A DNA stretch of 64,000 bases from a phage, in the sequence record PZ452608.1; one strand, 5' to 3'. Under the pieces are notes generated by a model. That model did not search any database and was not told the origin of the DNA. It saw only the letters and a program-made list of their open reading frames with translations. Position numbers and translations under genes: made by a program. Below, piece after piece: positions 28,643-42,779 of this stretch. Within the stretch, counting starts at the first letter, position 1, and each line of letters begins with the position of its first letter.

Positions 28643-29524
28643 ATGAAAACATCTATCCGTGTTACAGTTCATTCACCAACTAAAGGGACTCATGAAGAAG
28701 AGTTTAACATCGTCCAATTCCCTTCTGGTGAGATTGGTGGACACTTTTCGCCAGAGTTTGTTGATTTTACTGCTTATGCAGCATCATCCATCAACAATGT
28801 GATTATGATTGTAAAAGGTTATGACAAGGACACATTGTTTGCTGTGGCACTTGCTAAAGAAGCAATTGATGATTTAATTCCTCATGATTATGCTTTAAAG
28901 ACTGTCATCTTTTACTACTTACCAAATGCACGATATGACCGTCACATGTTTAAAGGTGACGCAGCAGCTTTAAAGGTTTTTGCTAAACAGATTAATGCAA
29001 TGGGATTTGGCGCAGTCTGTGCAGTTGACCCTCACAGCTATGTACCAGATAACCTGTTTAACTGCTTCCAGAGTATTCCTCAAAAGGAGATTGCAGTCCA
29101 CTATGCAAATGACCCACTGGTTGATTACTTAGTAGCCCCAGATGCAGGTGCTGCTAAGAAGGTTGCAGAGACCGCTAAAGAGGTGGATAAACCATATATC
29201 ACAATGTCTAAGGTGCGTAACCTTAAGACTGGTGAAATTACTGGTATGCGAATCCTTGATGATGTTGATTTGACAGATAAAACCGTCATGATTCTGGATG
29301 ATATCTGTGATGGTGGTCGAACCTTCATAGAAGCAGCTAAGCATCTCCGTGAAGCAGGTGCAAAACGTGTGGAACTCTATGTAACACATGGTATCTTCTC
29401 TAAAGATGTTGAAAACCTTCTTGACAATGGTATTGACCATATCTACACTACAAACTCTTTAGGGGAAGCTAAAGACCGTGGCTTAACACATTATGGTCAA
29501 GTTACTGTAGCAAACCTTGATTGA
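28643..29524 (+). CDS. ribose-phosphate pyrophosphokinase family protein (Prs-like; possible ADP-ribose pyrophosphokinase)
   Basis: PRTase motif VMILDDICDGGRTF, C-terminal VTHGIFS...TTNS and N-terminal NARYDRH resembling Prs; ATG start with GAGAGAGA RBS. Confidence 0.65.
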   Translation: MKTSIRVTVHSPTKGTHEEEFNIVQFPSGEIGGHFSPEFVDFTAYAASSINNVIMIVKGYDKDTLFAVALAKEAIDDLIPHDYALKTVIFYYLPNARYDRHMFKGDAAALKVFAKQINAMGFGAVCAVDPHSYVPDNLFNCFQSIPQKEIAVHYANDPLVDYLVAPDAGAAKKVAETAKEVDKPYITMSKVRNLKTGEITGMRILDDVDLTDKTVMILDDICDGGRTFIEAAKHLREAGAKRVELYVTHGIFSKDVENLLDNGIDHIYTTNSLGEAKDRGLTHYGQVTVANLD

Positions 29525-29533: not shown

Positions 29534-29554
29534 GGGGCTTAAAAGCCCCATTTT
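29534..29554 (+). terminator. intrinsic terminator
   Basis: GGGGCTTAAAAGCCCC then ATTTT. Confidence 0.5.
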
Positions 29555-29569
29555 GAGAGAGATTAAAAG

Positions 29570-31351
29570 ATGACTAAATCACTTTATGCAGTACCAGCAG
29601 GTTTAAATGCAGATGCTTACAAATCTGGTCATGTTTACCAGTATCCTAGTGCAACAGAATACTTGATGTTCAACCTGACACCACGTAGTGATAAATGGTT
29701 TAACAGCCCTTTAGCAATTGACGGTGTAGTGGCTTTTGGTATTCAACGTTTTGTTAAAGATTACTTGATAGACCACTGGAACGCCACTTTCTTTGAACGT
29801 GATAAAAAAGAAGCCATTGATGAAATCTTAGAAGTCATGAATGGTGTTCTGGGTAAAGATGCTATCGGTCGAGAGCATTGGGAAGCACTTCACGACTTAG
29901 GTTATCTACCAGTTGAAGTATACGCTGTAGAAGAAGGTACAGTTGTCCCTATGCGTGTCCCAATGATTGTCTTCCAGAACACTGTTTCAGGTTTCCATTG
30001 GGTAGCGGGATATCTGGAAGATGCTTTCTCTGCTGAGATTTGGAAGGCTTGTACCATTGCAACTATTGCATTGCATTATAAACGCATCTGTAAGAAGTGG
30101 GCTGACCTTACTTGCGACAATGACTTACATTTACCTTATCAGTGCCATGACTTTGCTATGCGTGGTATGTCCGGCTTTACTGATGACGCATTTAACGCTG
30201 TAGGCCACTTAACCAGCTTTAAAGGGACTGATAGCTTCCCTGCTGTATATACAGCTAAACGCATCTACGGACAGTCTTACCCAGTCTCTGATATTGGTGG
30301 TTCTGTACCAGCCACTGAACACTCTGTAATGTGTGCAAACATTGCTTGGGAAGGTGGTAATGAGTTGGTTGAAGAAGAAAGACGCTTTAAAGGTGAGTTG
30401 CAAACCTTCCGTCGCTTCTTAACAGAAACTTATCCAACTGGTATTGCAAGTATTGTTTCAGATACTTATAACTTCTGGAGAACTGTGTCAGAAATCTTAC
30501 CAGCACTCCGTAAAGAAATTATGGAACGTGACGGTAAACTGGTGATTCGTCCTGATTCTGGAGACCCTGTACATATTGTCACAGGTTATAAAGCAATCCA
30601 CTTAGAATGTGCTAAGAAGGCTTATTACGAGCACCTAAGCAAGCTGGAAGCCAGTGACACAATGCTGAATGCTGTTCTGAACATGAAGCTTGAAAATATC
30701 AGCTATGGTATTGCTGGATGGCTACTGTCAGAAGGCTACGAAATGGTTGTTGACAGAGAAGACTTTGAAGTTGCTGACACAGTGATGTTGAAAAATGCTT
30801 ATATGGTTGGTTCTGCAAACGTTGTAACACGTCCTGTAGCTGAGATTGATGGAGCTATTAAGACTCTGTATAACATCTTTGGAGGAACTATTAACTCTAA
30901 AGGTTTTAAGGTACTGGATGAGCACATTGGACTTATCTATGGCGACTCTATCACGTTGGAACGTGCAAACGAAATCCTGAAGCGTCTGTATGAAATGGGG
31001 TTTGCAAGCTCTAACGTGGTGTTTGGTGTAGGCTCTTACACTTACCAGTACATGACTCGTGACACCTTTGCATTTGCTGTCAAAGCAACTCTTGCAAGCA
31101 TTGGTGGCAAAGAGATTATGCTTGCAAAAGACCCTAAAACAGATAGTGGTGTTAAGAAATCTGCCTTTGGTGGTGTAGCACCTATGTGGGATGGTGAGAA
31201 TTTGAAAGCTGTAGATGGCTATGGATTCCAGAGCTTTGCAGATGCACTTGAACATCCAGCTTGTGCTTTACGTTTAGTCTTTAGCGACTCTGAGCAGTAC
31301 GGTTACACAACTCTTGGTGATATTCGAAATAATATTGACAAGCAGCTTTAA
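29570..31351 (+). CDS. nicotinamide phosphoribosyltransferase family protein (NadV/NAMPT-like)
   Basis: ADAYKSGHVYQYP, HDFAMRGMSG (DFGxRG), FKGTDSF motifs of the NAMPT family; 593 aa. Confidence 0.7.
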   Translation: MTKSLYAVPAGLNADAYKSGHVYQYPSATEYLMFNLTPRSDKWFNSPLAIDGVVAFGIQRFVKDYLIDHWNATFFERDKKEAIDEILEVMNGVLGKDAIGREHWEALHDLGYLPVEVYAVEEGTVVPMRVPMIVFQNTVSGFHWVAGYLEDAFSAEIWKACTIATIALHYKRICKKWADLTCDNDLHLPYQCHDFAMRGMSGFTDDAFNAVGHLTSFKGTDSFPAVYTAKRIYGQSYPVSDIGGSVPATEHSVMCANIAWEGGNELVEEERRFKGELQTFRRFLTETYPTGIASIVSDTYNFWRTVSEILPALRKEIMERDGKLVIRPDSGDPVHIVTGYKAIHLECAKKAYYEHLSKLEASDTMLNAVLNMKLENISYGIAGWLLSEGYEMVVDREDFEVADTVMLKNAYMVGSANVVTRPVAEIDGAIKTLYNIFGGTINSKGFKVLDEHIGLIYGDSITLERANEILKRLYEMGFASSNVVFGVGSYTYQYMTRDTFAFAVKATLASIGGKEIMLAKDPKTDSGVKKSAFGGVAPMWDGENLKAVDGYGFQSFADALEHPACALRLVFSDSEQYGYTTLGDIRNNIDKQL

Positions 31352-31365
31352 AAGTATATGATAAG

Positions 31366-31387
31366 AGGCTCCTACGGGAGCCTTTTT
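31366..31387 (+). terminator. intrinsic terminator
   Basis: GGCTCC-TACG-GGAGCC then TTTTT. Confidence 0.55.
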
Positions 31388-31404
31388 AATTTCTGGAGAA
31401 GATT

Positions 31405-31740: not shown

Positions 31741-31898
31741 AAATTTTACTGTCACTTGGTAGCGTAGCAGTATTTGTTTACCTTCTTTGCAAGTACTATG
31801 CAGAGTACAAGAAGTGTGATTACTGCAATGGGGAAGGGTATACAAGAGCAGGTTGTTGCCCTATGTGTGGTGGTTCTGGTAAAATGTTTAATAAGTAA
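31722..31898 (+). CDS. small membrane-anchored zinc-finger protein (57 aa)
   Basis: Not in ORF track; N-terminal hydrophobic segment then CDYCNGEG...CPMCGGSG (two CxxCxGxG repeats); AGAGGTGAG RBS. Confidence 0.3.
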   Translation: MQAYWIEILLSLGSVAVFVYLLCKYYAEYKKCDYCNGEGYTRAGCCPMCGGSGKMFNK

Positions 31899-31926
31899 TT
31901 TAACAGTAAACTAAGAGGAAAGTATT

Positions 31927-34293
31927 ATGCGCATGGTAAATGACCACGCAGAAGTGATTAAGAGTTCAACTTCTTTAGAGACGTCTCAAGCACAGATTAC
32001 AATGACACCTGAGATGTTCAGCCTTTTGAGTTCTGGTGTATATACCTTTAAAGAAAGGGCAGTGATTCGTGAACTGTCATGTAACGCAGTAGATGCTCAG
32101 AAAGAAGCTGGAAAAGAGAACATTCCGTTCCATGTGCATTTACCTACTCGTTTTGAGCCTTACTTTGAAGTTCGTGATTTTGGAACTGGATTGACTCATG
32201 ATAAAGTTATGAGTTTGTACCTAAACTACGGGGCTTCTACGAAGAATGACTCTAATGACTACATTGGTGCAATGGGTATCGGCTCAAAATCCCCATTTGC
32301 AATTGCTCAGTCATTCACAGTATCTAGCTATGTTGATGGTGTTGTTAATAAGTACTCTGTTTATCTTGAGAATGGTATCCCTCAAGTAACTAAGCTGACC
32401 ACTAACCCAACAAAAGAACCTAATGGTTTAGCTGTACGTGTGGCAGTTGCTGACCACCGTATCTCAAAGTTCTTTGAAGAAGCTGGAAATGTGTACTCAT
32501 ACTTCACTGTAAAACCAGAAAGTAATATTGAGTACGACGATGTATTAGCAGATATGAACGTCATTGCCCGTGAAGAAGGTGTTTATGATGCCATGATTCA
32601 TAAGCAAAGCTGGCGTTCTAGTGGTAACAGGACAGAGTTTAATGTGGTGATGGGTAATATTGCCTATCCAGTGAACATGGAAGCATTACTTGGTGATGAT
32701 TTCTTCAAAGTCTTGCCAGAGTTTTTCCGTAGGAGCGTAGACCTTGTAAACATCTACATGCCTATTGGTTCAGTTGCTATAGCAGCTTCTCGTGAAGCAT
32801 TGCAGATGAATGATACGACAAAAAATGTTATCATCGAGGCTACCAAAAAGATAACTGAAGCAATTACAAAGGATGTTATCAAGAAAGTTAATAGCCAACC
32901 TACACTCATGGATGCTGCACAGGCTTATGCAGAGCTACGTTTGAACTCACGAGAGATGTTTAATGCTGTGTGTCCAAAGCTAGAGTGGGGAGGCATTAAG
33001 CTTGATTCTCTGGAAGAAGAATTGTTAAACATTCGTCGTGGAATTATCTACGCAGAAGACGGCTCAGTCATTTATGAACGTGACGGTAAAGGCAATATTA
33101 AGGTTGATAGGAACGGGAACAATATCCCTAAAGTAGATTATCTTTATGACCCAGTTGCTTATGTCAAGTTCAACTCTTTAGAGAGTAAGATTCGTGCAAC
33201 AGCACTTTCCTACACTCAAGAGGCAAGCATGTTCAATATCTTTGGTGCAATGCGTAAAAGCCAAATTGAACAGTTTTTGTTCGTGATTAATGACCGTCGC
33301 AATAAAAACGGTACTGAGAAGACTGTAGGACGCAATCAAATTTTGCGTGGTGCATGTCGAGACTACGCCAGTGAGTCAAATCTGTTTCACAGATACAATG
33401 GTATTGTCTTTGTATTCTCGACTGAAAAAGAGTTAGATGATTTAATCAATCTACACAAACTTGATAAAAGCTTGTTAAAGATTGTGAAGATGTCTGATAA
33501 GGAACACCACTATCAGCGTAAAGAAGCTGTAAGGGGTGTTGTAAAACTCTGGAAAGCTGTTCCAGCAGAAACTAAAGCTTCATACAAAGAGGTGTCAGAA
33601 GACTTAGACACAATTGAAGAGCCTCAGCTTTATATTAAGGCAGTAGGTGACACAGTTGATGGTAGATGTTTTTGCTCATCTCCAGAGGATGTAGCTAAGT
33701 CAGTTGCTAATGTTACAGGCAAGACAGTCTATGTTTTCCGAAAAGCAAATTGGAAAAAGATACCAGAAGACTGGATTGAAGTAGATGAGAAGCTCTTGAA
33801 CGACAGCTTAACTGATGTTCATTGGATTAACCATAACAGGTATATGACACGCATCTACATGGATGGTGTCCTCGACCTTACAAGCAGTTGGATTATTGCC
33901 AGAAACTTTACGTTCAATAACAGGAAGATTTCTCGCGGGTATTGTTATTCAAGGGATACTATTAAGACAATCTTCTTAGAAGGGAATGAAGATGCTGTTG
34001 AGGCAATGTTCGGTAAGATTCAGTATGTGGCTGCACCGTTTGCATACACTTACACTATCAGTGTTCTTCAGGATTTGAAGTCATGCCTTGATAATGACAC
34101 AAAACTGTACAAAAAGATTAAAAAAGCAGGTGACCGCATGGTTATCAAGCTGACAAACTATCTTTCAAAAAGAAAACAAGAAAACTTCTTGCTTTCACAC
34201 TTAGATTGGAATAAAGTATCACCTATCGAAGTGAGTAAGTTTTTAGGCTTTAATGTGAAATGTGTTCCAGAAGGTACAACAATTTACGATTAA
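31927..34293 (+). CDS. GHKL-ATPase domain protein, rIIA-like
   Basis: Bergerat-fold motifs: N-box ELSCNAVDA, G1 DFGTGL, G2 GIGSKS; 788 aa followed by a 369-aa partner. Confidence 0.45.
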   Translation: MRMVNDHAEVIKSSTSLETSQAQITMTPEMFSLLSSGVYTFKERAVIRELSCNAVDAQKEAGKENIPFHVHLPTRFEPYFEVRDFGTGLTHDKVMSLYLNYGASTKNDSNDYIGAMGIGSKSPFAIAQSFTVSSYVDGVVNKYSVYLENGIPQVTKLTTNPTKEPNGLAVRVAVADHRISKFFEEAGNVYSYFTVKPESNIEYDDVLADMNVIAREEGVYDAMIHKQSWRSSGNRTEFNVVMGNIAYPVNMEALLGDDFFKVLPEFFRRSVDLVNIYMPIGSVAIAASREALQMNDTTKNVIIEATKKITEAITKDVIKKVNSQPTLMDAAQAYAELRLNSREMFNAVCPKLEWGGIKLDSLEEELLNIRRGIIYAEDGSVIYERDGKGNIKVDRNGNNIPKVDYLYDPVAYVKFNSLESKIRATALSYTQEASMFNIFGAMRKSQIEQFLFVINDRRNKNGTEKTVGRNQILRGACRDYASESNLFHRYNGIVFVFSTEKELDDLINLHKLDKSLLKIVKMSDKEHHYQRKEAVRGVVKLWKAVPAETKASYKEVSEDLDTIEEPQLYIKAVGDTVDGRCFCSSPEDVAKSVANVTGKTVYVFRKANWKKIPEDWIEVDEKLLNDSLTDVHWINHNRYMTRIYMDGVLDLTSSWIIARNFTFNNRKISRGYCYSRDTIKTIFLEGNEDAVEAMFGKIQYVAAPFAYTYTISVLQDLKSCLDNDTKLYKKIKKAGDRMVIKLTNYLSKRKQENFLLSHLDWNKVSPIEVSKFLGFNVKCVPEGTTIYD

Positions 34294-34372
34294 AGTGTTT
34301 GACAAGGGGCTTTGAAGCCCCTTAGAATAGCCTCACAAATTGATTGATTAACTAACAAGAGAGAGTAATAAG

Positions 34373-35482
34373 ATGACTACTAAAACTAAAGCACAGATTG
34401 ACGCAGAAATTTACAAACTGGTTAAAGAAGGTAAGCTGACTAAAACAGCTATTGCACAGAAGTTCAATACTTCAACCCGTTCAGTTGGTCGTGCTGTAGA
34501 GCGTCATGAAGCAACCTTAAAAGGCAAGAAGAAGGCAACTTCTACACCAGCTACGAAGACTTTGAAACAAGTTGCTAAGACTTTTAAAAAGAAAGCTGGC
34601 AAACCAGTTGAAAAGGTCGTTAAAGACACTGTACAGAAAGCTCCAGTAAATAAACTGCACGAAGCTATGCAGAAAGATGACAAGATTGAGTACATGATTA
34701 CTGGTGATTCTGTAATTATGACTTATGGTTCAGAATCTGAAATTGTTGAGTCTACTCATCCGAACTATCAAGAGATTGTAGTTCATGTTGTGAAAGGTGA
34801 GTTCAAGAAAGCATTTGAACTGATGAACATTCGTAAGTCTATCGAAAACTTCACTCAGGGTGCTATCACAATCAAAGGCGACAAGCTATTCTACGGTGCT
34901 GTTGAGATGCGTTCTACTCTGGTTGACCGTATTCTTCACATGATGAAAACTGGCGATAAAGGTTTTGAACGACTTGTAATGTTCTTCGAAAAACTGATGG
35001 AAAACCCATCTAAAGATTCTGTAGAACAACTTTGGGGATTTGTATCTCACCTTGATGTTGAAATTGATGAAGAAGGCTACATCATTGGTTGGAAGAAAGT
35101 CTCTACTCGTGAAGGCAAGCTGGTTGACTCTCACACCTACAAAGTGCCTAATGATTTGGGTAACATTGTAGAAATGCCACGTTGGATGGTTGATAATAAC
35201 CGTAACGTAACTTGCTCTCAAGGTCTTCATGTTGGTGCTTGGGATTATGTTCGTTGCTTCTCAGGTGATACAATCCTGAAGGTTCGCGTACATCCACGAG
35301 ATGTTGTATCTGTTCCAACTGATTACAATGATATGAAGATGCGTTCCTCTCGTTATGAAGTTGCAGCAATCGTTGATAATCAACGTAAAGTGCTGGAAGC
35401 ATGGGACGGTAAGACTGAAGCTTTGCATGTCATCGTTGGCACTGCTGGTGAACTCATCTCTCAACGTAAACGTGAAATCTAA
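34373..35482 (+). CDS. hypothetical protein (possible rIIB-like partner)
   Basis: 369-aa ORF immediately downstream of rIIA-like gene; assignment by position only. Confidence 0.3.
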   Translation: MTTKTKAQIDAEIYKLVKEGKLTKTAIAQKFNTSTRSVGRAVERHEATLKGKKKATSTPATKTLKQVAKTFKKKAGKPVEKVVKDTVQKAPVNKLHEAMQKDDKIEYMITGDSVIMTYGSESEIVESTHPNYQEIVVHVVKGEFKKAFELMNIRKSIENFTQGAITIKGDKLFYGAVEMRSTLVDRILHMMKTGDKGFERLVMFFEKLMENPSKDSVEQLWGFVSHLDVEIDEEGYIIGWKKVSTREGKLVDSHTYKVPNDLGNIVEMPRWMVDNNRNVTCSQGLHVGAWDYVRCFSGDTILKVRVHPRDVVSVPTDYNDMKMRSSRYEVAAIVDNQRKVLEAWDGKTEALHVIVGTAGELISQRKREI

Positions 35483-35498
35483 TAAGTAATTTCTTAAA

Positions 35499-35522
35499 AG
35501 GCTGCTTCGGCGGCCTTTTTTA
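35499..35522 (+). terminator. intrinsic terminator (UUCG tetraloop)
   Basis: GGCTGC-TTCG-GCGGCC then TTTTTT. Confidence 0.55.
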
Positions 35523-35582
35523 TTTGTATTTTGTGCAGAGTGCTGTATAATTGATGTCACGATAAACTAAACAGGAGAACCA

Positions 35583-36131
35583 ATGAAGAAATTGATTCTA
35601 GGTTTGTGCTTAATGTTTACAGCACACTTATCTTATGCAGTTGACTGCCCAGAACTATCAATTAGCCAAAAAGTGAACATGTTAAAAGCTTACCAGTATG
35701 GTGAGAATAACATGGGTAAAGGTTGGGGTATCACTCTAGCAGCTATAGCCTTACAAGAGTCAGAGTTAGGTCTGAAGGTAGAAAATAAAAAGACCCATGA
35801 CTATGGTATCTTCCAGAATCACTTGAAGACTGTTGTAAAGCGTAACAAAATTAGTCCTAATGTTGCTAAAAAGAAACTCTTAAAAGATTTTGACTATGCC
35901 GCAAAAGAAACACATAAAGAGCTTGAGTTTTGGACGAAGGTGCATGGTCACCCAAAGTCAAAGAAGACTTTACAAAAAGTTTTAGCATCATATAATGCTG
36001 GGTATTCGTACAGAATCCCTAAAGCTAAGAAATATTCTCAAGATGTCTATAACAACATGAAAGTTATTGCTCAATGTGAATTTGCAACAAACATTTCTAA
36101 GGTAAACCATGAAAAAATTAAAAAAGTCTGA
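35583..36131 (+). CDS. secreted lytic transglycosylase-like protein
   Basis: Signal peptide MKKLILGLCLMFTAHLSYA; ALQESELG...YGIFQ resembles SLT-domain catalytic region. Confidence 0.4.
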   Translation: MKKLILGLCLMFTAHLSYAVDCPELSISQKVNMLKAYQYGENNMGKGWGITLAAIALQESELGLKVENKKTHDYGIFQNHLKTVVKRNKISPNVAKKKLLKDFDYAAKETHKELEFWTKVHGHPKSKKTLQKVLASYNAGYSYRIPKAKKYSQDVYNNMKVIAQCEFATNISKVNHEKIKKV

Positions 36132-36804
36132 TGAAGTCCTGTGCCACGCTTATGACTTACATCCTCATGAGTTAGGTCTTGATTCCTGTGTATGGACTCC
36201 AGAACAGTGTAGGGATTTTGAAGACACTGCAAGAGAAGTTGTATGTTCACTGGAAGAGTTCCACACATCAGAACCAATTGTGAACGTTGTGGACAAAGAG
36301 ACTGGACAAACTATAGGTGTAAGGCGCGATAGTTTAGTCATAGTCAATAAAGACCTTGTAGAAAAAGGTAACCTCATCTTAGCAGATATTGATGGTGTTC
36401 TTACAAATTTTAATCACGAAGATTGCTCAACGGAATTGACTGATGGGTCATTCTCACAGTACACTAATCTTCTTGATTCTGTAAGAGCAAAGCCAACATA
36501 TGTTTTCAACATTATTGATGCAATTGCAAATCATGCAGCAGTTGGACTCTTGACAGCAAGAGGTGAATCTCAGAGAATACCTACTGAGATGTTTTTAAGG
36601 CACAATATAGAGCATGATTACTTGCTTTTTATGCGTGGTTTTGGAACTAACTCTATAAGTGCAGAAAGTTTGAAAGTGAGGATGATTCAGTCTTGCATTC
36701 TTCCTTACTTTAATATAGTATGCTTTATAGAAGATACAGAGAATAATGTTCAGAAGGTAAACAGAATCCTTCCACACATTAAAACTATGTTAGTTAAACA
36801 TTGA
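36109..36804 (+). CDS. HAD-family phosphatase-like protein (possible 5'-nucleotidase)
   Basis: HAD motif I ADIDGVLT. Confidence 0.4.
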   Translation: MKKLKKSDEVLCHAYDLHPHELGLDSCVWTPEQCRDFEDTAREVVCSLEEFHTSEPIVNVVDKETGQTIGVRRDSLVIVNKDLVEKGNLILADIDGVLTNFNHEDCSTELTDGSFSQYTNLLDSVRAKPTYVFNIIDAIANHAAVGLLTARGESQRIPTEMFLRHNIEHDYLLFMRGFGTNSISAESLKVRMIQSCILPYFNIVCFIEDTENNVQKVNRILPHIKTMLVKH

Positions 36805-36815
36805 GAGAAGAACTT

Positions 36816-37280
36816 ATGAACAATATCATTACGGTAGCACTGGACGATACGGCAAACAAATCTGAAGTAGTTCGTAAAATGATTCAAGGTAACTTTGAAG
36901 GTAAAATTTTCCGTGCTGTTAATGTAAAAGCTGATGGTAGCATTCGCGAATATCGTGCATTGTTGAACGTTAAGAAGCACGTAAAAGGTGTTGGTTCAAC
37001 GACTGCACACAAAGAAAACCTGATGACTATCTATGATATGGGTAAGGCTTCAGAGTTAGGTGCTGAGGGTATCGTTAAAGAAGGTGCTCCGTATCGCTCT
37101 TTCAATCTGGAAACTACTCTTATGCTTTCCTTTACAAGTGGTTCCAAAACAATCACTTATCTCTTTACTGATGCTGCAACGGTATCTGCTATTAAGGATA
37201 GCACTGTCAAAGCTGGCGTAGTTGCTGCTGCAAAAGCTTCTTCGATGGCTGCGAATATCCTTGCTAAAGTCCTCGGTTAA
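36816..37280 (+). CDS. hypothetical protein
   Basis: ATG start (track start is TTG); followed by terminator. Confidence 0.4.
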   Translation: MNNIITVALDDTANKSEVVRKMIQGNFEGKIFRAVNVKADGSIREYRALLNVKKHVKGVGSTTAHKENLMTIYDMGKASELGAEGIVKEGAPYRSFNLETTLMLSFTSGSKTITYLFTDAATVSAIKDSTVKAGVVAAAKASSMAANILAKVLG

Positions 37281-37292
37281 GGTTAAGATACA

Positions 37293-37313
37293 GGCTCCTT
37301 CGGGAGCCTTTTT
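37293..37313 (+). terminator. intrinsic terminator (UUCG tetraloop)
   Basis: GGCTCC-TTCG-GGAGCC then TTTTT. Confidence 0.55.
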
Positions 37314-37332
37314 CATTTCAGGAGATTGTTAA

Positions 37333-37680
37333 ATGACATTTAAAGAGTTCTGTCAAGCTACTTTCATAGTTGTTTTCTTAGTTGGGGCAGGTGTCTGGGG
37401 AGGATACTCTTACAGAGACTACCAAGTTGCTGAAACTGAGCTAAACAATGAGAAGCTGATAAGTGTTGCTAAAGATGCTTATCAGGAAGGATTAGCTACA
37501 CTGAGCACCAATTACAAAAATGATTTGAAAGATGTGCTTGCTAAGAATAAGCACACAAAAGAGGTACTAACGTATGAAAAAACTAAGCCAGAGTTTTATA
37601 ATGTTTGTGTTACTGATAATTATGTCAGGGTGTTCAACGAACAAAGTGAACAGTACATTCAAAAACTCCCAAGTAAGTGA
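37333..37680 (+). CDS. membrane-anchored protein, candidate i-spanin
   Basis: N-terminal TM (FIVVFLVGAGVWGG) plus helical periplasmic-type region; overlapped out of frame by a lipoprotein gene. Confidence 0.35.
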   Translation: MTFKEFCQATFIVVFLVGAGVWGGYSYRDYQVAETELNNEKLISVAKDAYQEGLATLSTNYKNDLKDVLAKNKHTKEVLTYEKTKPEFYNVCVTDNYVRVFNEQSEQYIQKLPSK

Positions 37681-37843
37681 GGGTGACAAGTACACTCAAG
37701 AAGAATCACGGTATATCATCAAAGGTAACACAGGCAGTGATGTAGCAGCAGCACTTGAGTTCTACCGTGACGGCTTTTACCAGTGTACAATTAAAGCTAA
37801 TAACCTTATTGACATGATTTTATTAGGGAATAAGCAGCAATGA
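37574..37843 (+). CDS. lipoprotein, candidate o-spanin
   Basis: Signal peptide with lipobox LLIIMSGC; starts inside the 3' end of 37333-37680 in another frame. Confidence 0.35.
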   Translation: MKKLSQSFIMFVLLIIMSGCSTNKVNSTFKNSQVSEGDKYTQEESRYIIKGNTGSDVAAALEFYRDGFYQCTIKANNLIDMILLGNKQQ

Positions 37844-38109
37844 CAGAGAATCAAGACACTTTCTATGTAGAAGGTTACTTACTGTTGCCACGACCAAAAG
37901 AAACTTATATGCGAATTGATTTCTTACCAACCATTATGGATAATGTGATGTGTCATATCTTTATGCAAGGTGTCACAGCACAGCTTAAGCATGTTGGTAA
38001 AGATTGCAAAATAAAGGTTGACACTCATCCAGAAATCAAAGAGAATCACTACACATGGTTCTTACCAGATTCTAAAGAAATCTTAGCAGTTCTTAAAACG
38101 AGGAAGTAA
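37840..38109 (+). CDS. hypothetical protein
   Basis: 89-aa ORF. Confidence 0.35.
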   Translation: MTENQDTFYVEGYLLLPRPKETYMRIDFLPTIMDNVMCHIFMQGVTAQLKHVGKDCKIKVDTHPEIKENHYTWFLPDSKEILAVLKTRK

Positions 38110-38111
38110 CT

Positions 38112-38435
38112 ATGCAGATTAATGGAAGAGACTTTGTAGCCGTTTACTACGAGAAAGATAAAGAAGTTGGCGTAGCGCAAGTATCTTATGGCAATGGTGG
38201 GTGGCTATATGGAACAATCGCAGTAGTTGGAACGAGAAGTGATACAAAAACTTTTAAAGATTGTGTTGACCTTCTTGAAGAATCCATTCAGAATCATTGG
38301 TGTCTGATATGGATGACTGACAACGAAGTGATAGAACGCTTCAAAAAGGTTGATATCAACATTGATAGTATTGAGCATGTTGATTTATATGAGCTAACTG
38401 AGAAGGTAAATTATGAAAGCTCTAGAGGTAATTGA
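38112..38435 (+). CDS. hypothetical protein
   Basis: 107-aa ORF. Confidence 0.35.
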   Translation: MQINGRDFVAVYYEKDKEVGVAQVSYGNGGWLYGTIAVVGTRSDTKTFKDCVDLLEESIQNHWCLIWMTDNEVIERFKKVDINIDSIEHVDLYELTEKVNYESSRGN

Positions 38436-38640
38436 TAAAGATACTGGAGAAGTCGTATCTGCATGTGTTTTCATGAGCGATGACACAGTAATACCGTTTT
38501 ACAATCTTGATGGTTTTAGTTTTACAGGGATAACTCCAGAAGAATACTTTGAAGACCTTACCTTTGCCAGAATTTCTATAGATACATTCTATAAATGCTT
38601 CTATGATGAAGGTAAAGAATTACGAGAAACTGAACTATAA
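38413..38640 (+). CDS. hypothetical protein
   Basis: 75-aa ORF. Confidence 0.3.
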   Translation: MKALEVIDKDTGEVVSACVFMSDDTVIPFYNLDGFSFTGITPEEYFEDLTFARISIDTFYKCFYDEGKELRETEL

Positions 38641-38652
38641 GGTGTATGTTAT

Positions 38653-38853
38653 ATGGCTGACTTCTGCAAAGACTGTTCTATAGAAATGTTTGGACGTGAT
38701 ACAGGTGACTTAAAAGGTCTTATCACTGAAGATGACTTTAAAGCTGGCTATGCAATGCCAGTAATCTGTGAAGGTTGTGGATGTATCTGGGTAGACCATG
38801 AGGGGCAACGTGTAAAACCTTCAGAAGATAAAGAATCTTGGGAGAGATGTTAA
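38653..38853 (+). CDS. small zinc-ribbon protein
   Basis: CKDC...CEGCGC cysteine pairs. Confidence 0.3.
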   Translation: MADFCKDCSIEMFGRDTGDLKGLITEDDFKAGYAMPVICEGCGCIWVDHEGQRVKPSEDKESWERC

Positions 38854-39639
38854 ATGGGTATTGTAAAAATAATCAATGGTGATATCTTTGCCGCATTTGA
38901 TAAAGGTAAGTTTGACATCATCGGTCACGGTTGCAACTGTATGAATTTAATGGGTGCAGGTATCGCTGACAAGATTTCTAAACTTTACCCAAAAGCATAT
39001 GAGACCGATACAGAAGTTTATCTATATGCAGGTGGTATAGGACACAAACCCTGTGAAAATTTACTGGGTAATTTCTCTGTAGCACGTTTAAAACAAGGTC
39101 GTATAGCTAACCTTTACACTCAGCTTAAGACTGGTAAAGATGCCCGATACAGTGCTTTAGAGTCATCTTTGAAACAGCTTAACAGATACTGTGAAGTTAA
39201 TCAGTTGAGGAAAGTTGGTTTACCTATGATTGGTGCAGGTATCGGTGGGTTGGACCCTCAAGCCGTCACAGTTATCATCAATCAGGTGATGAAGAGTGTA
39301 GATGTTTATCTATATGTCTATGAAGGAGAGATGTACCACAAGTTACGCTCAGGTTGGAATAACTACTGTGAACCAGAATACTTTGCAGGTGTAGTAACGT
39401 TCAAAGATGATACAGTTACCCTCTTCAGACGAAGAAAAGGTAAGATACATCAAAGTAACCCTCCGGTTGAGAAGATGTCTCTAAGTAACGCTCTAGTTAC
39501 CCACCTGTCGAAGAGCAATCACAGGATAGCCGTAACATTTGGCAGTGATGCAGATACATATATTTATGCAAGAACTGATGAGGATATCGAGACGGTCTTC
39601 TCTTCACCGGAAGTTACCTTCTTAGACGCAAAGAACTAA
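38854..39639 (+). CDS. macro-domain protein (ADP-ribose binding/processing) with C-terminal extension
   Basis: IINGDIFAAFDKGKFDIIGHGCNCMNLMGAGIA and VGLPMIGAGIGGLDP resemble macro-domain motifs. Confidence 0.5.
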   Translation: MGIVKIINGDIFAAFDKGKFDIIGHGCNCMNLMGAGIADKISKLYPKAYETDTEVYLYAGGIGHKPCENLLGNFSVARLKQGRIANLYTQLKTGKDARYSALESSLKQLNRYCEVNQLRKVGLPMIGAGIGGLDPQAVTVIINQVMKSVDVYLYVYEGEMYHKLRSGWNNYCEPEYFAGVVTFKDDTVTLFRRRKGKIHQSNPPVEKMSLSNALVTHLSKSNHRIAVTFGSDADTYIYARTDEDIETVFSSPEVTFLDAKN

Positions 39640-39670
39640 GAAACTCTGTATAATATTCACAATAGACTAA

Positions 39671-39715
39671 GCCTTCCTTATCTGGTAAATTTTTCAGGTA
39701 AGGAGGGCTTTTTCA
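39671..39715 (+). terminator. intrinsic terminator (long imperfect stem)
   Basis: GCCTTCCTTA...TAAGGAGGGC then TTTTT. Confidence 0.4.
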
Positions 39716-39900
39716 TTTCAGGATTGTGCAGGTAGAGTTCTGTAGAGAAATCTGTAGAGAGAATTTTGAACTCCAAAGAGAAAATTCATTTTCAAACTGT
39801 GCAGGTAATCTCCAAAGAGCTTTTTCATTTTCAAAAAGTGCACCCCGCTCAGGTCGGGCAAGAAAAATCATTTTAGAATTGTGCAGGTAGGTTTTTATGG
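39716..39900. repeat. repeat-rich non-coding region
   Basis: TGTGCAGGTA x3 at about 80-bp spacing, TCTGTAGAGA x2, CTCCAAAGAG x2, CCCTCTCCCC x2. Confidence 0.5.
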
Positions 39901-40065
39901 AGAGCCATACCAACCCCTCTCCCCCTATTACCCCCTCTCTCCCCAAAAGTCAAGAGAAAAATTTGTAGCGGATTGAAAAATAATTCTTGATTTGTGTTCT
40001 GTTTTGTGGTAGTCGTGTGCGCACGTTTCATTACAGTTTTTCCAAAAATATTTTTAAAATTTTTC

Positions 40066-40157
40066 TTGACTCTTTGAACGGGGTTATCTAGTATTTGCAT
40101 CAACGGGGAGGGAATGACCTTCCCCACTAAATAAAGTCCTAAACTGGAGATTCAAAA
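40066..40157 (+). promoter_or_regulatory. type A leader module: sigma70-like promoter, 5' stem-loop, conserved leader and SD
   Basis: TTGACT-17-TAGTAT, then CAACGGGGAGGGAATGACCTTCCCC hairpin, then ACTAAATAAAGTCCTAAACTGGAGATTCAAAAATG; repeated before ORFs at 41718, 42582, 43809, 44706, 45304, 45636. Confidence 0.5.
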
Positions 40158-40538
40158 ATGGCATACCGTGCACCTAAATTCATCAACAAAGACAACTTTC
40201 GCAACGCACTGGAGAAGTCACTTGATGAGAATTTTAAAGGTAACGTTATTGTTGTTCACTCGTTCAATTTCAAGTATGATATTAACGGGAATAAAATCAA
40301 CCATTACACGGCGACAATGCTAGATGGTACTCTTTCAAGTGAAAAAGCCATTTTACATGCACTTGCTGGACGTGGTAAAAACCTGATAAGATGCGATAAG
40401 AGACGTTATCAGGGTGGCGCATATGGTTACGATGATGCTGTTTATCATCTTGAAAATATGGGCTATCAAGTAGAAAAAGCTGGAGTGTCTCAAATAATCG
40501 GTAGTGATGGTTATGTAACAATCTTCAAAATTAACTGA
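40158..40538 (+). CDS. hypothetical protein (array gene 1)
   Basis: 126 aa; type A leader with GGAG SD. Confidence 0.5.
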   Translation: MAYRAPKFINKDNFRNALEKSLDENFKGNVIVVHSFNFKYDINGNKINHYTATMLDGTLSSEKAILHALAGRGKNLIRCDKRRYQGGAYGYDDAVYHLENMGYQVEKAGVSQIIGSDGYVTIFKIN

Positions 40539-40626
40539 TAAAGTACTTTACAAGGGGCTTATAGTTCGATAAAGTAAGCCCCAGATAAAGAGCTTTACCA
40601 CTAAATCCTAAATTGGAGATTCAAAA
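40539..40626 (+). promoter_or_regulatory. type B leader module: GC hairpin plus conserved leader and SD
   Basis: TAAAGTACTTTACA-AGGGGCTTA..TAAGCCCC-AGATAAAGAGCTTTACCACTAAATCCTAAATTGGAGATTCAAAAATG; repeated before ORFs at 41006, 42076, 42873, 44143. Confidence 0.45.
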
Positions 40627-40917
40627 ATGGCTACTATCAAAAACGTTGTAATTCCTGTAAAAACTCGTGATGACGCTCGCATCATGGCGAAAAAGTTAGG
40701 CGGGAAAGTGGTTGACAACGGAAAACAATCTGCTGTAAGATGGGGTGTGAAGGCTGATAAACAGTTGAAGTTAAAAAATTCACCAATAAATCTTTTTACA
40801 TGTGTAAACACTATCGGAAAGACAAATGTATACACGAAAAAGGCATATATTAGACGCGTAGCCTTAACATCTCCAATTCGTACAATGAGAGGTTATGCAA
40901 AGCTGAAAATTAGCTGA
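40627..40917 (+). CDS. hypothetical protein (array gene 2)
   Basis: 96 aa basic protein; type B leader. Confidence 0.5.
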   Translation: MATIKNVVIPVKTRDDARIMAKKLGGKVVDNGKQSAVRWGVKADKQLKLKNSPINLFTCVNTIGKTNVYTKKAYIRRVALTSPIRTMRGYAKLKIS

Positions 40918-41005
40918 TAAAGTACTTTACAAGGGGCTTAAAAGTTGGTATCTTAAGCCCCAGATAAAGAGCTTTACCACTCAATCCTAAACTGGAGATT
41001 CAAAA

Positions 41006-41302
41006 ATGAAATTATCAAATAAAGTTCGTGAAAATCTAAGCAAATTACTCAACAAAATTGATTTCATTGAAACATCAAGAAATAGCCATGATGTTATGGA
41101 ATGGTTACACGGCAAAATAAAAGGTCGTCGTGTAGTGATTTGCTTATGGAATAGTTGCAGGGAGTATAAAAAACCTGTATTGCAAGTTAATATCTATGAT
41201 GATACTCTTAAAAGTCCTGTCAAATCTAAAAGTGATTTATTAGAATCTTATGAGATAACTGTAAGTGGCAAAGTATCACGTAAAGAGGAAGCACCATGTT
41301 AA
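41006..41302 (+). CDS. hypothetical protein (array gene 3)
   Basis: 98 aa; type B leader. Confidence 0.5.
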   Translation: MKLSNKVRENLSKLLNKIDFIETSRNSHDVMEWLHGKIKGRRVVICLWNSCREYKKPVLQVNIYDDTLKSPVKSKSDLLESYEITVSGKVSRKEEAPC

Positions 41303-41628
41303 TGACTGGTATCACTGCAATCATTGCCATTTTCGCGCTCTATAAGGCATATAAAGCCTATAATCTAGCAAATAAGGCAATCACACAACAGGTTAGCAAT
41401 AGCCTTGTAATGAGCTTTCTAGAGCGGTTGAGCGATGAACAATTAAAGCGGTTAGAAATGAGCTTCAGATTCAGGGCGAGAACTTATCAAATCAGCGACA
41501 TTTTCAAAGATGATTTTCAATTAGTCGATGATTATAATTCTCTGATAAATGCTTTAAATATTAGTGACTTAAAAGACTATCATACTGTAATTGTTCAAGA
41601 GTTGAGCAAACGAAAACAAAACTGTTGA
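41296..41628 (+). CDS. hypothetical protein (array gene 4)
   Basis: 110 aa; overlaps upstream gene, no leader module. Confidence 0.35.
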   Translation: MLMTGITAIIAIFALYKAYKAYNLANKAITQQVSNSLVMSFLERLSDEQLKRLEMSFRFRARTYQISDIFKDDFQLVDDYNSLINALNISDLKDYHTVIVQELSKRKQNC

Positions 41629-41717
41629 CACTGATTTTTAGATAGATTAAATTACACATCAACGGGGAGGCAATAAACACCCCACTAAATAAAGCCCTTA
41701 AACTAGGAGATTCTAAA

Positions 41718-41990
41718 ATGTATACTACTAACAACGGTCGCACTTTAAATGTCACTCTACGTCACTATGTAGACGGTGTGATGCACTTTGAGGATTTACA
41801 GGCTGAGCAACATATCTTAGATTGGCAAGTCGCAGGACTCCAAAAAACTGCTACCGGATACGGCAAAAAGATTCCAACTAGCTGGAAAGTATACTATGAA
41901 GGACGTTTGCGCAGAATTTATCAGGATGTATGTAGCAATAGCACATCAAGTTACATCATAGTAAAAGGTAAAAAACTGCATTTAGTATAA
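41718..41990 (+). CDS. hypothetical protein (array gene 5)
   Basis: 90 aa; type A leader (TTGACA-17-TAAATT). Confidence 0.5.
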   Translation: MYTTNNGRTLNVTLRHYVDGVMHFEDLQAEQHILDWQVAGLQKTATGYGKKIPTSWKVYYEGRLRRIYQDVCSNSTSSYIIVKGKKLHLV

Positions 41991-42075
41991 AGTACTTTAC
42001 AGGGGGCTTATTAGTCTGTACAGTAAGCCCCAGATAAAGAGCTTTACCACTCAATCCTAAATTGGAGATTCTAAA

Positions 42076-42480
42076 ATGGCTATTAATAATCGTGAGTTGT
42101 CAATCTTAAAAGCACGTTTAACCGTTAATCGAATCAATGTTATTACATCATCAGCACCGGATGAAACATTGCACAACATTATCGGAAAGATTCAAAGCGT
42201 TATCTTAGACGTTGAAAACGTAAAAAACTCATTGGCTGACGTTGCAGCAGGTATCACGCTAGACGGTGCACAATATGAAATGGTCGACATGTTAGGCAAA
42301 TCTAAGGTAATGAATAAAGAGTTAGACTTGAAAATGTTTAGATTTGCCGTGAAAGTGTGGCTATCTGTTGAGTATGATGCTAATTTTGCAATCGCTGATT
42401 TCTTTGCCACTTGGTTACAACGTAATTTGGCAAATCATGACTTTCGTGACATCTGCGACGCAATTTATGCAGAACTCTAA
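42076..42480 (+). CDS. hypothetical protein (array gene 6)
   Basis: 134 aa; type B leader. Confidence 0.5.
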   Translation: MAINNRELSILKARLTVNRINVITSSAPDETLHNIIGKIQSVILDVENVKNSLADVAAGITLDGAQYEMVDMLGKSKVMNKELDLKMFRFAVKVWLSVEYDANFAIADFFATWLQRNLANHDFRDICDAIYAEL

Positions 42481-42581
42481 AAATTTTATTGACACTGATT
42501 TTTAGATAGATTAAATTACACATCAACGGGGAGGGAATGACCTTCCCCACTAAGTAAAGTCCTTAAACTAGGAGATTCAAA

Positions 42582-42779
42582 ATGGCTATTATCAACGGTT
42601 TAACCATTGAAACCACGCACATCAAAGACATTAAAGTTGGTGATGTAGTTCTTTCCCACGGCGTAGAAAAAACAGTCACTGCAAAGGATATCAAAGATGA
42701 TTCTTTCATGGGTAGAACTCTCTTCGGTGATTCTTATTGCTTAGGTTATCTTGCAGTTTTAAAAGTTGTCAAAAATTAA
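42582..42779 (+). CDS. hypothetical protein (array gene 7)
   Basis: 65 aa; type A leader. Confidence 0.45.
   Translation: MAIINGLTIETTHIKDIKVGDVVLSHGVEKTVTAKDIKDDSFMGRTLFGDSYCLGYLAVLKVVKN

What the first reader, a model, noticed from the sequence alone, without database searches (positions are those of the whole stretch)
38854..39639. Macro-domain protein with a C-terminal extension
Seen in sequence: N-terminal half carries macro-domain-like motifs (GDIF..DIIGHGCNCMNLMGAGIA; VGLPMIGAGIGGLDP) followed by about 120 aa of unknown function. Established knowledge: macro domains bind or hydrolyse ADP-ribose derivatives, and ADP-ribose-based chemistry is used in bacterial defence. It lies 7.5 kb from the Prs-like/NAMPT-like pair and just upstream of the small-gene array; any link is inference.
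Basis: partly seen in the sequence, partly recalled or inferred. Interest (0 to 1): 0.5.

Follow-up and report, generated by a model that had tools for sequence, protein, structure and literature searches.

The report
Phage macro-domain ADP-ribose phosphatase homologue
This phage gene encodes a real macro-domain enzyme, most likely the missing third step (removing a phosphate from ADP-ribose-1''-phosphate) of the phage's own NAD+-rebuilding counter-defence pathway, and it carries an extra, fast-evolving tail domain of unknown function.

Summary
Window 38854-39639 (+) is a 261-aa ORF, 100% identical to gp12 of Escherichia phage wV8 (Felixounavirus), already annotated 'macro domain protein/phosphatase'. 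Residues 1-157 form a confident macro fold. Residues 158-261 form a compact beta-rich domain with no detectable relatives outside this phage lineage.

The macro domain lacks the catalytic Lys of TARG1/DarG/AdfM (invariant Gln90 instead). It has the His-x-x-Asn plus N-L-Y-T-Q signature of Adpp, the phage ADP-ribose-1''-phosphate phosphatase described in a January 2026 preprint. Adpp lets the NARP1 pathway (Adps + Namat) rebuild NAD+ after cleavage by the aRES defence. The essential Adpp His24 aligns with His25 here.

wV8's Prs-like/NAMPT-like pair is listed as NARP1 in the 2024 NARP1 preprint's supplement. In Vibrio phage K354 a homologous macro gene sits directly between those two genes.

Best reading: an unlinked, two-domain Adpp, so a split 'NARP1-AP', missed by the published survey, which looked only two genes away. 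No activity has been tested. T4-like phages carry the same macro family mostly without NARP1, so the coupling is inferred. The C-terminal domain's role is unknown. Modest interest: a new variant of a known kind.

The parts
38854..39639 (+). gp12 ORF, 261 aa (wV8 WV8_gp012; 'phosphatase' / 'macro domain protein')
   Evidence: ORF list and sequence. 100% identical to wV8, SP22 and O157 typing phages 8/11/12. Annotation. PHROG 335 at E=8e-113.
38854..39324 (+). Macro domain, residues 1-157. Key residues: Asp10, His25 (codon 38926-38928), Asn28, loop MGAGIA 33-38, N86-L-Y-T-Q90 (Gln90 codon 39121-39123), loop IGAGIGG 126-132
   Evidence: Pfam Macro. AF2 model and Foldseek hits to TARG1/DarG/Poa1p. 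Invariant columns in the homologue alignment. Alignment to Adpp proteins.
39325..39636 (+). C-terminal domain, residues 158-261: one helix, six beta-strands and a C-terminal helix. Lineage-restricted, with no known relatives
39669..39710 (+). Intrinsic-terminator-like hairpin plus T-run, 30 nt after the stop codon. It ends the transcription unit
   Evidence: Scan result. Annotated as a Rho-independent terminator in NC_012749.
37292..37309 (+). Upstream terminator-like hairpin. Together with 39669-39710 it brackets the gp6-gp12 gene block
38653..38853 (+). gp11, 66 aa, CxxC...CxxC. Its TAA stop directly abuts the ATG of gp12 (possible translational coupling). Function unknown
   Evidence: No Pfam or NCBIfam family.
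28643..29524 (+). Prs-like gene = Adps of NARP1 (ADPR pyrophosphorylating enzyme). Proposed downstream partner
   Evidence: Pfam Pribosyltran/Pribosyl_synth. wV8 EU877232_00148 is listed among Adps proteins in the supplement of bioRxiv 10.1101/2024.02.11.579819.
29570..31351 (+). NAMPT-like gene = Namat of NARP1. Proposed downstream partner
   Evidence: ORF. wV8 EU877232_00149 is listed as 'Adps-associated' in the same supplement. 100% match to the wV8 gene annotated as nicotinamide/nicotinate phosphoribosyltransferase.

Best explanation
gp12 is a two-domain protein. Its N-terminal macro domain is an Adpp-type ADP-ribose-1''-phosphate phosphatase. When a host RES-type NADase (aRES) splits NAD+ into nicotinamide and ADPR-1''-P, gp12 would remove the 1''-phosphate to give ADPR. 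The phage's own NARP1 enzymes, encoded 7.5 kb upstream on the same strand, would then convert ADPR back to NAD+: Adps turns ADPR + ATP into ADPR-PP, and Namat turns ADPR-PP + nicotinamide into NAD+. On this reading Felixounaviruses carry a 'split' NARP1-AP pathway.

Shown here: the macro fold, the conserved ligand-binding residues, the Adpp-type active-site signature, NARP1 in the same genome, and conserved synteny.

Inferred: the substrate, the coupling to NARP1, and the target defence.

The C-terminal ~105-aa domain is a lineage-specific, fast-evolving add-on that appears only fused to this macro domain. My best guess, at low confidence, is that it mediates a protein-protein contact with a host defence protein or with the NARP1 enzymes, rather than catalysis.
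For: 1. Fold and binding residues.

2. Signature. The essential His24 of Vibrio phage Gary Adpp (the H24A mutant construct listed in the supplement; mutations in Adpp abolish anti-aRES activity) aligns with the invariant His25. The N-[LV]-Y-[GT]-Q and P-x-I-G-x-G-x-x-G-G motifs are shared. BLASTP against Gary Adpp gives 27% identity, E=3e-13.

3. Profile scoring. An HMM built from 11 NARP1-linked Adpp proteins scores gp12(1-160) at 103.6 bits. That lies inside the leave-clade-out range of true members (96-177 bits). A DarG/AdfM HMM gives 38.8 bits, inside the range of Adpp proteins (23-44) and far below true DarG members (107-173).

4. Several proteins in the preprint's Table S1 (PaYy-2, MAG1, phiAbaA1, B09_Aci05) are direct tblastn hits of gp12.

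5. In Vibrio phage K354 a homologue lies, overlapping, between the prs-like and NAMPT-like genes, just after rIIA/rIIB.

6. wV8 Adps and Namat are listed in the NARP1 preprint's supplement.

7. Distant two-domain homologues (33-41% identity) all sit in the same NAMPT-rIIA-rIIB-...-macro arrangement, as does the Erwinia Kolesnikvirus homologue.

8. Namat at >=60% identity occurs in 261 phage records. Full-length gp12-like proteins occur in 244-258. That fits near one-to-one co-occurrence.

9. The aRES systems tested in the preprint come from E. coli, Klebsiella and Enterobacter, which overlaps wV8's E. coli host.
Against: No biochemical or genetic data exist for gp12 or any Felixounavirus homologue.

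The gene is about 14 genes from NARP1 and in a different terminator-bounded unit. It therefore fails the operon criterion by which Adpp was defined.

The macro family is much wider than NARP1. There are 2842 phage records with a homologue, including 998 Escherichia phages against only 192 with a Namat homologue. T4-like Tk.4 proteins score as high on the Adpp profile (100.7 bits) although most of those phages appear to lack NARP1. The family therefore has, or also has, a NARP1-independent role.

The NJ tree does not resolve whether gp12 is closer to NARP1-linked Adpp or to T4-like proteins.

PHROG 335 also contains the DarG2-like AdfM, so family membership alone is not diagnostic.

Validated Adpp proteins are single-domain. 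The extra domain could redirect specificity.
Confidence: 0.58

Rival explanations
1. DarG2/AdfM-like anti-DarT factor: the macro domain removes ADP-ribose from thymine in phage DNA modified by DarT2, and the C-terminal domain acts like the DarT-binding domain of DarG.
For: The NCBIfam DarG model matches residues 7-162 at E=1.7e-12. DarG macro domains are among the best structural matches (E about 2e-9, target TM 0.78-0.80). A phage macro-domain anti-DarT factor, AdfM, exists and falls in the same PHROG 335. The two-domain layout, macro plus a second domain, loosely parallels DarG2.
Against: The catalytic Lys (Taq DarG K80, PhiKZ AdfM K78, in the motif F-P-T-K) is an invariant Gln here (N-L-Y-T-Q90). 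The NCBIfam score is 47 bits against a cut-off of 250 and covers only the macro part, positions 4-152 of 338. A DarG/AdfM profile gives 38.8 bits against 107-173 for true members. The C-terminal domain has no detectable similarity to anything, DarG included.
Confidence: 0.07
2. General (TARG1-like) mono-ADP-ribosyl hydrolase or O-acetyl-ADPR deacetylase. It would act on ADP-ribosylated protein or RNA, for example to undo host ADP-ribosyltransferase defences. The C-terminal domain would select the macromolecular substrate.
For: TARG1 is the top hit by sequence (E=9e-6 single sequence, 5.5e-17 by profile) and by fold. The same macro family is widespread in T4-like phages, most of which appear to lack NARP1, so some NARP1-independent activity must exist. 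An added recognition domain would fit a macromolecular substrate.
Against: Both residues of the TARG1 catalytic dyad are absent: K84 aligns with Gln90 and D125 with Gly131. The experimentally validated Adpp has the same TARG1-first hit list, so that ranking does not discriminate. There is no evidence for any particular target.
Confidence: 0.13
3. Binder or degrader of ADP-ribose-derived immune signals (Thoeris cADPR isomers, His-ADPR). It would act as a sponge, or as an enzyme that feeds ADPR to NARP1, analogous to RyDEP.
For: Macro domains bind ADPR derivatives (established knowledge). Another NARP1 accessory enzyme, RyDEP, converts 2'/3'cADPR to ADPR (PMC13232231), so accessory 'feeder' enzymes for NARP1 are a recurring theme.
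Against: Nothing specific supports it. The catalytic His needed for phosphatase function is strictly conserved, which a pure sponge would not require. No similarity to known sponges was seen in the family scans.
Confidence: 0.07
4. Housekeeping clean-up of ADPR-1''-P (or Appr>p products) made during RNA repair or tRNA-splicing-type 2'-phosphotransfer, as for yeast Poa1p, and unrelated to defence.
For: The Poa1p-like N-terminal motif matches well (HGCNC...GAGIA...YPKA against HSCNC...GGGIA...YPKA). One metagenomic homologue (P0026) is fused to the Pfam 'cyclic-phosphate processing receiver' domain cREC_REC. A gene annotated polynucleotide kinase lies 2 kb upstream; its metagenomic counterparts have HAD_PNKP Pfam marks. 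The phage carries 26 tRNA genes.
Against: No Tpt1/KptA-type 2'-phosphotransferase or RNA ligase was identified near the gene, although the whole genome was not searched. The phage encodes NARP1, which gives the ADPR product an obvious use. The gene evolves fast and shows allele replacement, which is atypical of housekeeping genes.
Confidence: 0.07

Closest known systems
Adpp (ADPR-1''-phosphate phosphatase of the NARP1-AP pathway; Vibrio phage Gary KNV71_gp137; bioRxiv 10.64898/2026.01.28.702374)
   Same: Same PHROG (335). Macro fold. Essential His conserved (H24 aligns with H25). Shared N-x-Y-x-Q and IG-x-G-x-x-GG motifs. The profile score falls in the range of true members. NARP1 is present in the same genome.
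   Different: 27% identity. Not in the NARP1 operon (7.5 kb and about 14 genes away). Lacks the insertion after the Gln found in most NARP1-linked members. Carries an extra ~105-aa C-terminal domain, whereas the 12 Adpp-type proteins aligned here are single-domain, 148-167 aa. Activity untested.
Yeast Poa1p (ADP-ribose 1''-phosphate phosphatase; PDB 6LFQ-6LFU)
   Same: Macro fold (Foldseek E=7e-9, target TM 0.76). N-terminal H-x-C-N-C...G-x-G-I-A...Y-P-K-A motif, including the His studied by H23A.
   Different: Poa1p Ser30 corresponds to Leu32. Sequence similarity is confined mainly to the N-terminal 40 residues in the single-sequence search. Poa1p is a eukaryotic enzyme acting on a tRNA-splicing by-product. 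It has no C-terminal domain.
DarG2 antitoxin macro domain and phage AdfM (PhiKZ gp104; PMC13309987)
   Same: Same macro subclass and the same PHROG 335. Asn28 aligns with DarG Asn22. Both have the G-G-L type second loop.
   Different: The catalytic Lys is replaced by Gln. A His replaces the first Asn of the N-x-x-N motif. Profile scores are low. There is no DarT-binding domain homology.
Human TARG1/OARD1 (PDB 4J5Q/R/S)
   Same: Best solved-structure match by sequence and by fold.
   Different: The catalytic dyad K84/D125 is absent (Gln90/Gly131).
T4-type Tk.4 protein ('17.5 kDa protein in tk-vs intergenic region')
   Same: 34-36% identity and the same motif set, including His and N-L-Y-T-Q. 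Already noted as a homologue in the Felix O1 annotation.
   Different: Single-domain, about 155 aa. Most Escherichia phages that carry it appear to lack NARP1. To my knowledge it is uncharacterised.

Membership tests
Macro domain (Pfam PF01661) | Profile score above the curated gathering threshold | tested here: met
   31.6 bits against a cut-off of 22, E=1.7e-7, residues 25-141.
Macro domain (Pfam PF01661) | Three-layer alpha/beta/alpha macro fold | tested here: met
   AF2 pLDDT 91.2. Foldseek hits to TARG1, DarG, Poa1p and viral macro domains, probability 1.00, target TM 0.7-0.85.
Macro domain (Pfam PF01661) | ADP-ribose-binding elements: N-terminal Asp contacting adenine and two Gly-rich phosphate-binding loops | tested here: met
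   Gly9 (near-invariant) followed by Asp10, M33-G-A-G-I-A38 and I126-G-A-G-I-G-G132 are invariant, near-invariant or the majority residue in 23 homologues. Ligand binding itself was not tested.
Adpp / NARP1-AP phosphatase | Poa1p-like macro domain homologous to validated Adpp | tested here: met
   BLASTP against Gary Adpp E=3e-13. Adpp-profile score 103.6 bits, within the leave-out range of 96-177. Same PHROG 335.
Adpp / NARP1-AP phosphatase | Catalytic His (Gary H24; an H24A mutant is listed and Adpp mutations abolish anti-aRES function) | tested here: met
   His25 aligns with H24 and is invariant in the 23-sequence alignment.
Adpp / NARP1-AP phosphatase | Gene located within the NARP1 operon (within two genes of Adps/Namat) | tested here: not met
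   gp12 starts 7.5 kb and about 14 genes downstream of Namat, beyond two terminators. No Felix-like, Escherichia or Salmonella phages occur in Table S1.
Adpp / NARP1-AP phosphatase | NARP1 (Adps + Namat) encoded by the same phage | tested here: met
   Window 28643-29524 and 29570-31351. wV8 genes are listed in the NARP1 preprint's supplement.
Adpp / NARP1-AP phosphatase | Converts ADPR-1''-P to ADPR and, with NARP1, overcomes aRES defence | not testable with these tools
   Needs enzymology and plaque assays.
DarG2 / AdfM (DNA ADP-ribosylglycohydrolase) | Catalytic Lys in the F-P-T-K motif (Taq K80; PhiKZ K78) | tested here: not met
   The aligned position is the invariant Gln90 (N-L-Y-T-Q).
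DarG2 / AdfM (DNA ADP-ribosylglycohydrolase) | Score above the NCBIfam NF048014 cut-off, and a DarT-binding C-terminal domain | tested here: not met
   47.3 bits against a cut-off of 250. Only model positions 4-152 of 338 are matched. The C-terminal domain has no relatives.
TARG1/OARD1 | Catalytic dyad Lys84 / Asp125 | tested here: not met
   In the profile alignment K84 aligns with Gln90 and D125 with Gly131.
Poa1p | Active-site His23 and Ser30 | tested here: inconclusive
   His23 aligns with His25 (met). Ser30 aligns with Leu32 (not met). Whether Ser30 is needed for phosphatase chemistry in phage Adpp is unknown.

The most novel reading that the evidence does not exclude
The fast-evolving, lineage-restricted C-terminal domain is a new fold that gives gp12 a second mode of action. 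Two examples: it directly binds and blocks a host NADase or ADP-ribosyltransferase, as DarG's second domain or aRad1 do; or it docks the phosphatase onto Adps/Namat to channel ADPR. Felixounavirus gp12 would then be a dual enzyme-plus-inhibitor counter-defence protein. A corollary is that unlinked Adpp genes make NARP1-AP much more common than the published 15% of NARP1 phages.
Probability: 0.15. Interest if true: 0.6.

Novelty: new variant of a known kind. Interest (0 to 1): 0.36.

Why it matters
If gp12 is a working Adpp, the roughly 250 sequenced Felix O1-like phages, several of them used or proposed as therapeutic, typing or biocontrol phages for E. coli O157 and Salmonella, already carry a complete three-enzyme answer to both canonical NADase defences and RES-type NAD+ phosphorylases.

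It would also mean the published estimate of NARP1-AP prevalence is a lower bound. That estimate counted macro genes only within two genes of NARP1.

The orphan C-terminal domain is a defined, testable handle. It evolves much faster than the macro domain and is swapped as a cassette between near-identical genomes. That is the behaviour expected of a part that touches a host protein.

If gp12 is not an Adpp, the result is still useful: it would show that the His/Gln-type phage macro family, which includes T4 Tk.4, has another activity.

Tried and rejected
1. gp11-gp12 fusion. The wV8 record says both gp11 and gp12 are 'similar to NP_944800.1', which suggested a fused protein in Felix O1. The Felix O1 record shows two separate genes (66 aa and 261 aa), so this is an annotation slip.

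2. Stand-alone C-terminal domain. P0032 (114 aa) and P0040 (54 aa) looked like free copies. Their sequences are fragments of full-length alleles.

3. Weak multi-stretch hits of the C-domain profile to very large proteins. Four mid-size hits were checked against Pfam. Three are PQQ beta-propeller repeat proteins and the fourth only overlaps a fibronectin type III/SusE region. I judged all of them to be beta-hairpin or compositional resemblance.

4. C-domain fold searches:
- BFVD returned only its own family.
- Per-member Pfam scans returned nothing consistent.
- The afdb50 library was unavailable.

5. aRad1-like inhibitor. An HMM built from seven published aRad1 sequences finds nothing in any frame of the window.

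6. Phylogeny to decide Adpp versus T4-like affinity. The deep NJ nodes have bootstrap support of 6-32, so the question is unresolved. One earlier script timed out.

7. PHROG membership as a discriminator. It fails, because PHROG 335 also holds AdfM.

8. Literature. No paper mentions a Felixounavirus macro domain.

Full report
WHAT IS THERE

The DNA is 100% identical to gene 12 of Escherichia phage wV8 (Felixounavirus, Ounavirinae). It is more than 90% identical in about 200 Felix O1-like phage records, where it is annotated 'hypothetical protein', 'macro domain protein' or 'phosphatase'. The window is a wrap-around of that genome: window coordinate = record coordinate + 32000 for the first part of the record.

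The gene is the last of a block (gp6 to gp12) bracketed by two terminator-like hairpins, at 37292-37309 and 39669-39710. The stop codon of the 66-aa CxxC...CxxC ORF gp11 directly abuts its ATG.

THE MACRO DOMAIN IS REAL

- Pfam Macro matches above its curated threshold: 31.6 bits against 22.
- An AlphaFold2 model built on 23 homologues has mean pLDDT 91.2 and pTM 0.89.
- Its best solved-structure matches are TARG1, DarG and Poa1p macro domains (Foldseek E 4.5e-10 to 7e-9, target TM 0.76-0.85).
- His25, Gly26, Asn28, Cys29, Met33, Gly36, Ala38, Asn86, Leu87, Thr89, Gln90, Pro124, Gly127 and Gly129 are invariant across homologues down to 30% identity.

The macro fold ends near residue 157. The extension is therefore about 105 aa, not about 120.

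WHICH KIND OF MACRO DOMAIN

Three characterised relatives had to be told apart.

TARG1. It uses Lys84 and Asp125. In the profile alignment these positions are Gln90 and Gly131.

DarG2 and AdfM. DarG2, and the phage anti-DarT factor AdfM (PhiKZ gp104), use Asn22 and Lys80 (Lys78 in AdfM) (PMC13309987). I recovered the Mtb, Thermus and Thermosipho DarG sequences from alignments to PhiKZ gp104. Their N-T-V-N ... F-P-T-K signature corresponds here to H-G-C-N ... N-L-Y-T-Q. The Asn is kept, the catalytic Lys is not. The NCBIfam DarG model matches only its macro part, at 47 bits against a cut-off of 250.

Adpp. This is the relevant relative. A January 2026 preprint (bioRxiv 10.64898/2026.01.28.702374) reports four things:
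- The aRES defence cleaves NAD+ to nicotinamide plus ADPR-1''-phosphate.
- NARP1 (Adps + Namat) cannot use that product.
- 15% of NARP1 phages carry a Poa1p-like macro protein, Adpp, inside the operon.
- Purified Adpp from Vibrio phage Gary converts ADPR-1''-P to ADPR, and mutation (an H24A construct is listed) or deletion of the gene abolishes the anti-aRES effect.

gp12 aligns with Gary Adpp at 27% identity (E=3e-13), with His25 on His24. In a joint alignment it shares the H-x-x-N-C, N-x-Y-x-Q and P-x-I-G-x-G-x-x-G-G motifs with ten Table S1 proteins.

Profile scoring:

| Sequence scored | Adpp profile (11 NARP1-linked proteins) | DarG/AdfM profile (4 proteins) |
|---|---|---|
| gp12 residues 1-160 | 103.6 bits | 38.8 bits |
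| True Adpp members | 96-177 bits (own clade left out) | 23-44 bits |
| True DarG/AdfM members | 46-66 bits | 107-173 bits (left out) |

A size-matched four-sequence Adpp profile still gives gp12 80 bits.

Gary Adpp has the same PDB hit list as gp12, with TARG1 first. The TARG1-first ranking therefore says nothing against the Adpp reading.

PHROG 335 ('phosphatase') contains gp12, Adpp, T4-like Tk.4 and AdfM alike. PHROG membership does not discriminate. The active-site signature and the profile scores do.

LINK TO THE Prs-LIKE/NAMPT-LIKE PAIR

The pair lies at window 28643-29524 and 29570-31351. Both wV8 genes are listed in the supplement of the original NARP1 preprint, as an Adps homologue and as 'Adps-associated' Namat (bioRxiv 10.1101/2024.02.11.579819).

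gp12 starts 7.5 kb downstream on the same strand. The published Adpp survey looked only two genes either side of NARP1, and its Table S1 holds no Felix-like, Escherichia or Salmonella phage.

Independent genomic support:
- In Vibrio phage K354 a 148-aa homologue overlaps the end of the prs-like gene and precedes the NAMPT-like gene, immediately after rIIA/rIIB.
- Metagenomic two-domain homologues at 33-41% identity, and the Erwinia Kolesnikvirus homologue, all keep the order NAMPT-like, rIIA, rIIB..., PNKP-like..., macro.
- Namat homologues at >=60% identity occur in 261 phage records. Full-length gp12-like proteins occur in 244-258.

BEST EXPLANATION

gp12 is most likely an unlinked Adpp that supplies ADPR to NARP1 when the host depletes NAD+ through a RES-type phosphorylase.

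The macro fold, the conserved residues, the Adpp-type signature, NARP1 in the same genome and the conserved synteny are shown.

The substrate, the coupling to NARP1 and the target defence are inferred.

CAVEATS

The macro family is far broader than NARP1. Homologues occur in 2842 phage records, including 998 Escherichia phages against 192 with a Namat homologue. T4-like Tk.4 proteins, encoded between vs and tk, score equally well on the Adpp profile. In a Vequintavirus the macro gene has no NAMPT-like gene within 12 kb.

Either ADPR-1''-P removal is useful without NARP1, or the family has another substrate. The NJ tree does not resolve gp12's nearest functional neighbours.

THE C-TERMINAL DOMAIN

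Residues 158-261 are predicted as one helix, six strands and a C-terminal helix. pLDDT is about 85-94 in the full-length model and 78 when modelled alone. The pTM of 0.89 suggests fixed packing on the macro domain, but I could not inspect the coordinates.

It has no detectable relatives:
- No Pfam match.
- No BFVD match outside its own family.
- No resemblance to aRad1.
- A profile search of 1.84 billion representative proteins finds it only fused to this macro domain. The apparent stand-alone hits are gene fragments.

It evolves much faster than the macro domain. For the same three proteins, identity to wV8 is 82%, 76% and 55% in the macro part and 53%, 46% and 23% in the tail.

One Felix-like contig is 95.4% identical to the window up to codon 48 of gp12, and again from about 190 nt past the stop. 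In between it carries an unalignable allele, 41% identical at protein level.

The whole gene is also less conserved than Namat across the same phages. This pattern fits a part engaged with a variable partner. That is inference only.

NOVELTY AND SCORE

The gene and its macro annotation are already public, and the family's biochemical function was described in 2026.

Three points are new here:
- the assignment of the Felixounavirus protein to the Adpp type rather than the DarG/AdfM or TARG1 type;
- the implication of a split NARP1-AP that the operon-based survey missed;
- the lineage-specific, orphan, cassette-like C-terminal domain.

That makes it a new variant of a known kind, of modest interest (0.36). 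It would rise if the C-terminal domain proves to be a second counter-defence module.

Noticed in passing
L010 (Logan SRR18206799 contig) versus window 38997-39824: A Felix-like contig is 95.4% identical to window 28854-38996 and 95.7% identical to 39825-40077, but unalignable in between. From codon ~48 onward the macro gene is replaced by a 41%-identical allele (P0009). This is cassette-like allele replacement, with one junction inside the conserved HGCNC...GAGIA-coding stretch.
   Followed up: partly
L007:8998-9780 (Erwinia phage vEam_PM_21, Kolesnikvirus): The syntenic 260-aa homologue has Gln in place of the His that is essential in Adpp (IGQGCNC instead of IGHGCNC). This may be a loss or change of activity in that lineage.
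   Followed up: no
window 38653-38853 (gp11); L009:9810-10001: A 66-aa CxxC...CxxC ORF ends with a TAA directly abutting the gp12 ATG. A distant relative has an unrelated 63-aa CxxC...CxxC ORF overlapping the macro start at the same place, while another (L008) has a non-Cys 103-aa ORF there. It could be a small Zn-ribbon partner, or coincidence. The wV8 note calling gp12 'similar to NP_944800.1' is an annotation slip.
   Followed up: partly
L004:4169-7122 (Vibrio phage K354): A contiguous prs-like / macro / NAMPT-like trio lies right after rIIA/rIIB. This NARP1-AP arrangement resembles a compacted version of the wV8 region.
   Followed up: yes
P0026 (339-aa metagenomic protein): A macro domain of the same clade is fused to the Pfam cREC_REC 'cyclic-phosphate processing receiver' domain. 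This hints at a link to Appr>p/Appr1p metabolism outside phage NARP1.
   Followed up: no
Hits H58 and H63 (Microbacterium phages Pumpernickel, Zooman): Macro homologues lie under genes annotated as ADP-ribosyltransferase. These may be writer-eraser fusions or neighbours.
   Followed up: no
window 39713-42600: Downstream of the terminator begins the array of small genes. In NC_012749 each is preceded by an annotated direct repeat (DR_1 to DR_9, 40-80 bp). These are probably repeated promoter or regulatory cassettes.
   Followed up: no
window 57986-63556: A cluster of 26 tRNA genes on the + strand.
   Followed up: no
window 36109-36804 (gp4): Annotated 'polynucleotide kinase', but it has no Pfam match here. 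Metagenomic counterparts carry only weak or faint HAD_PNKP marks, so it is probably a HAD-type phosphatase rather than a kinase. It is conserved in synteny between rIIB and the macro gene.
   Followed up: partly
window 28628-31351 versus NC_012749: The wrap-around offset between the window and the RefSeq record differs by 1 nt on the two sides of the record ends. The window therefore comes from a differently permuted, or 1-nt different, assembly of the same phage.
   Followed up: partly
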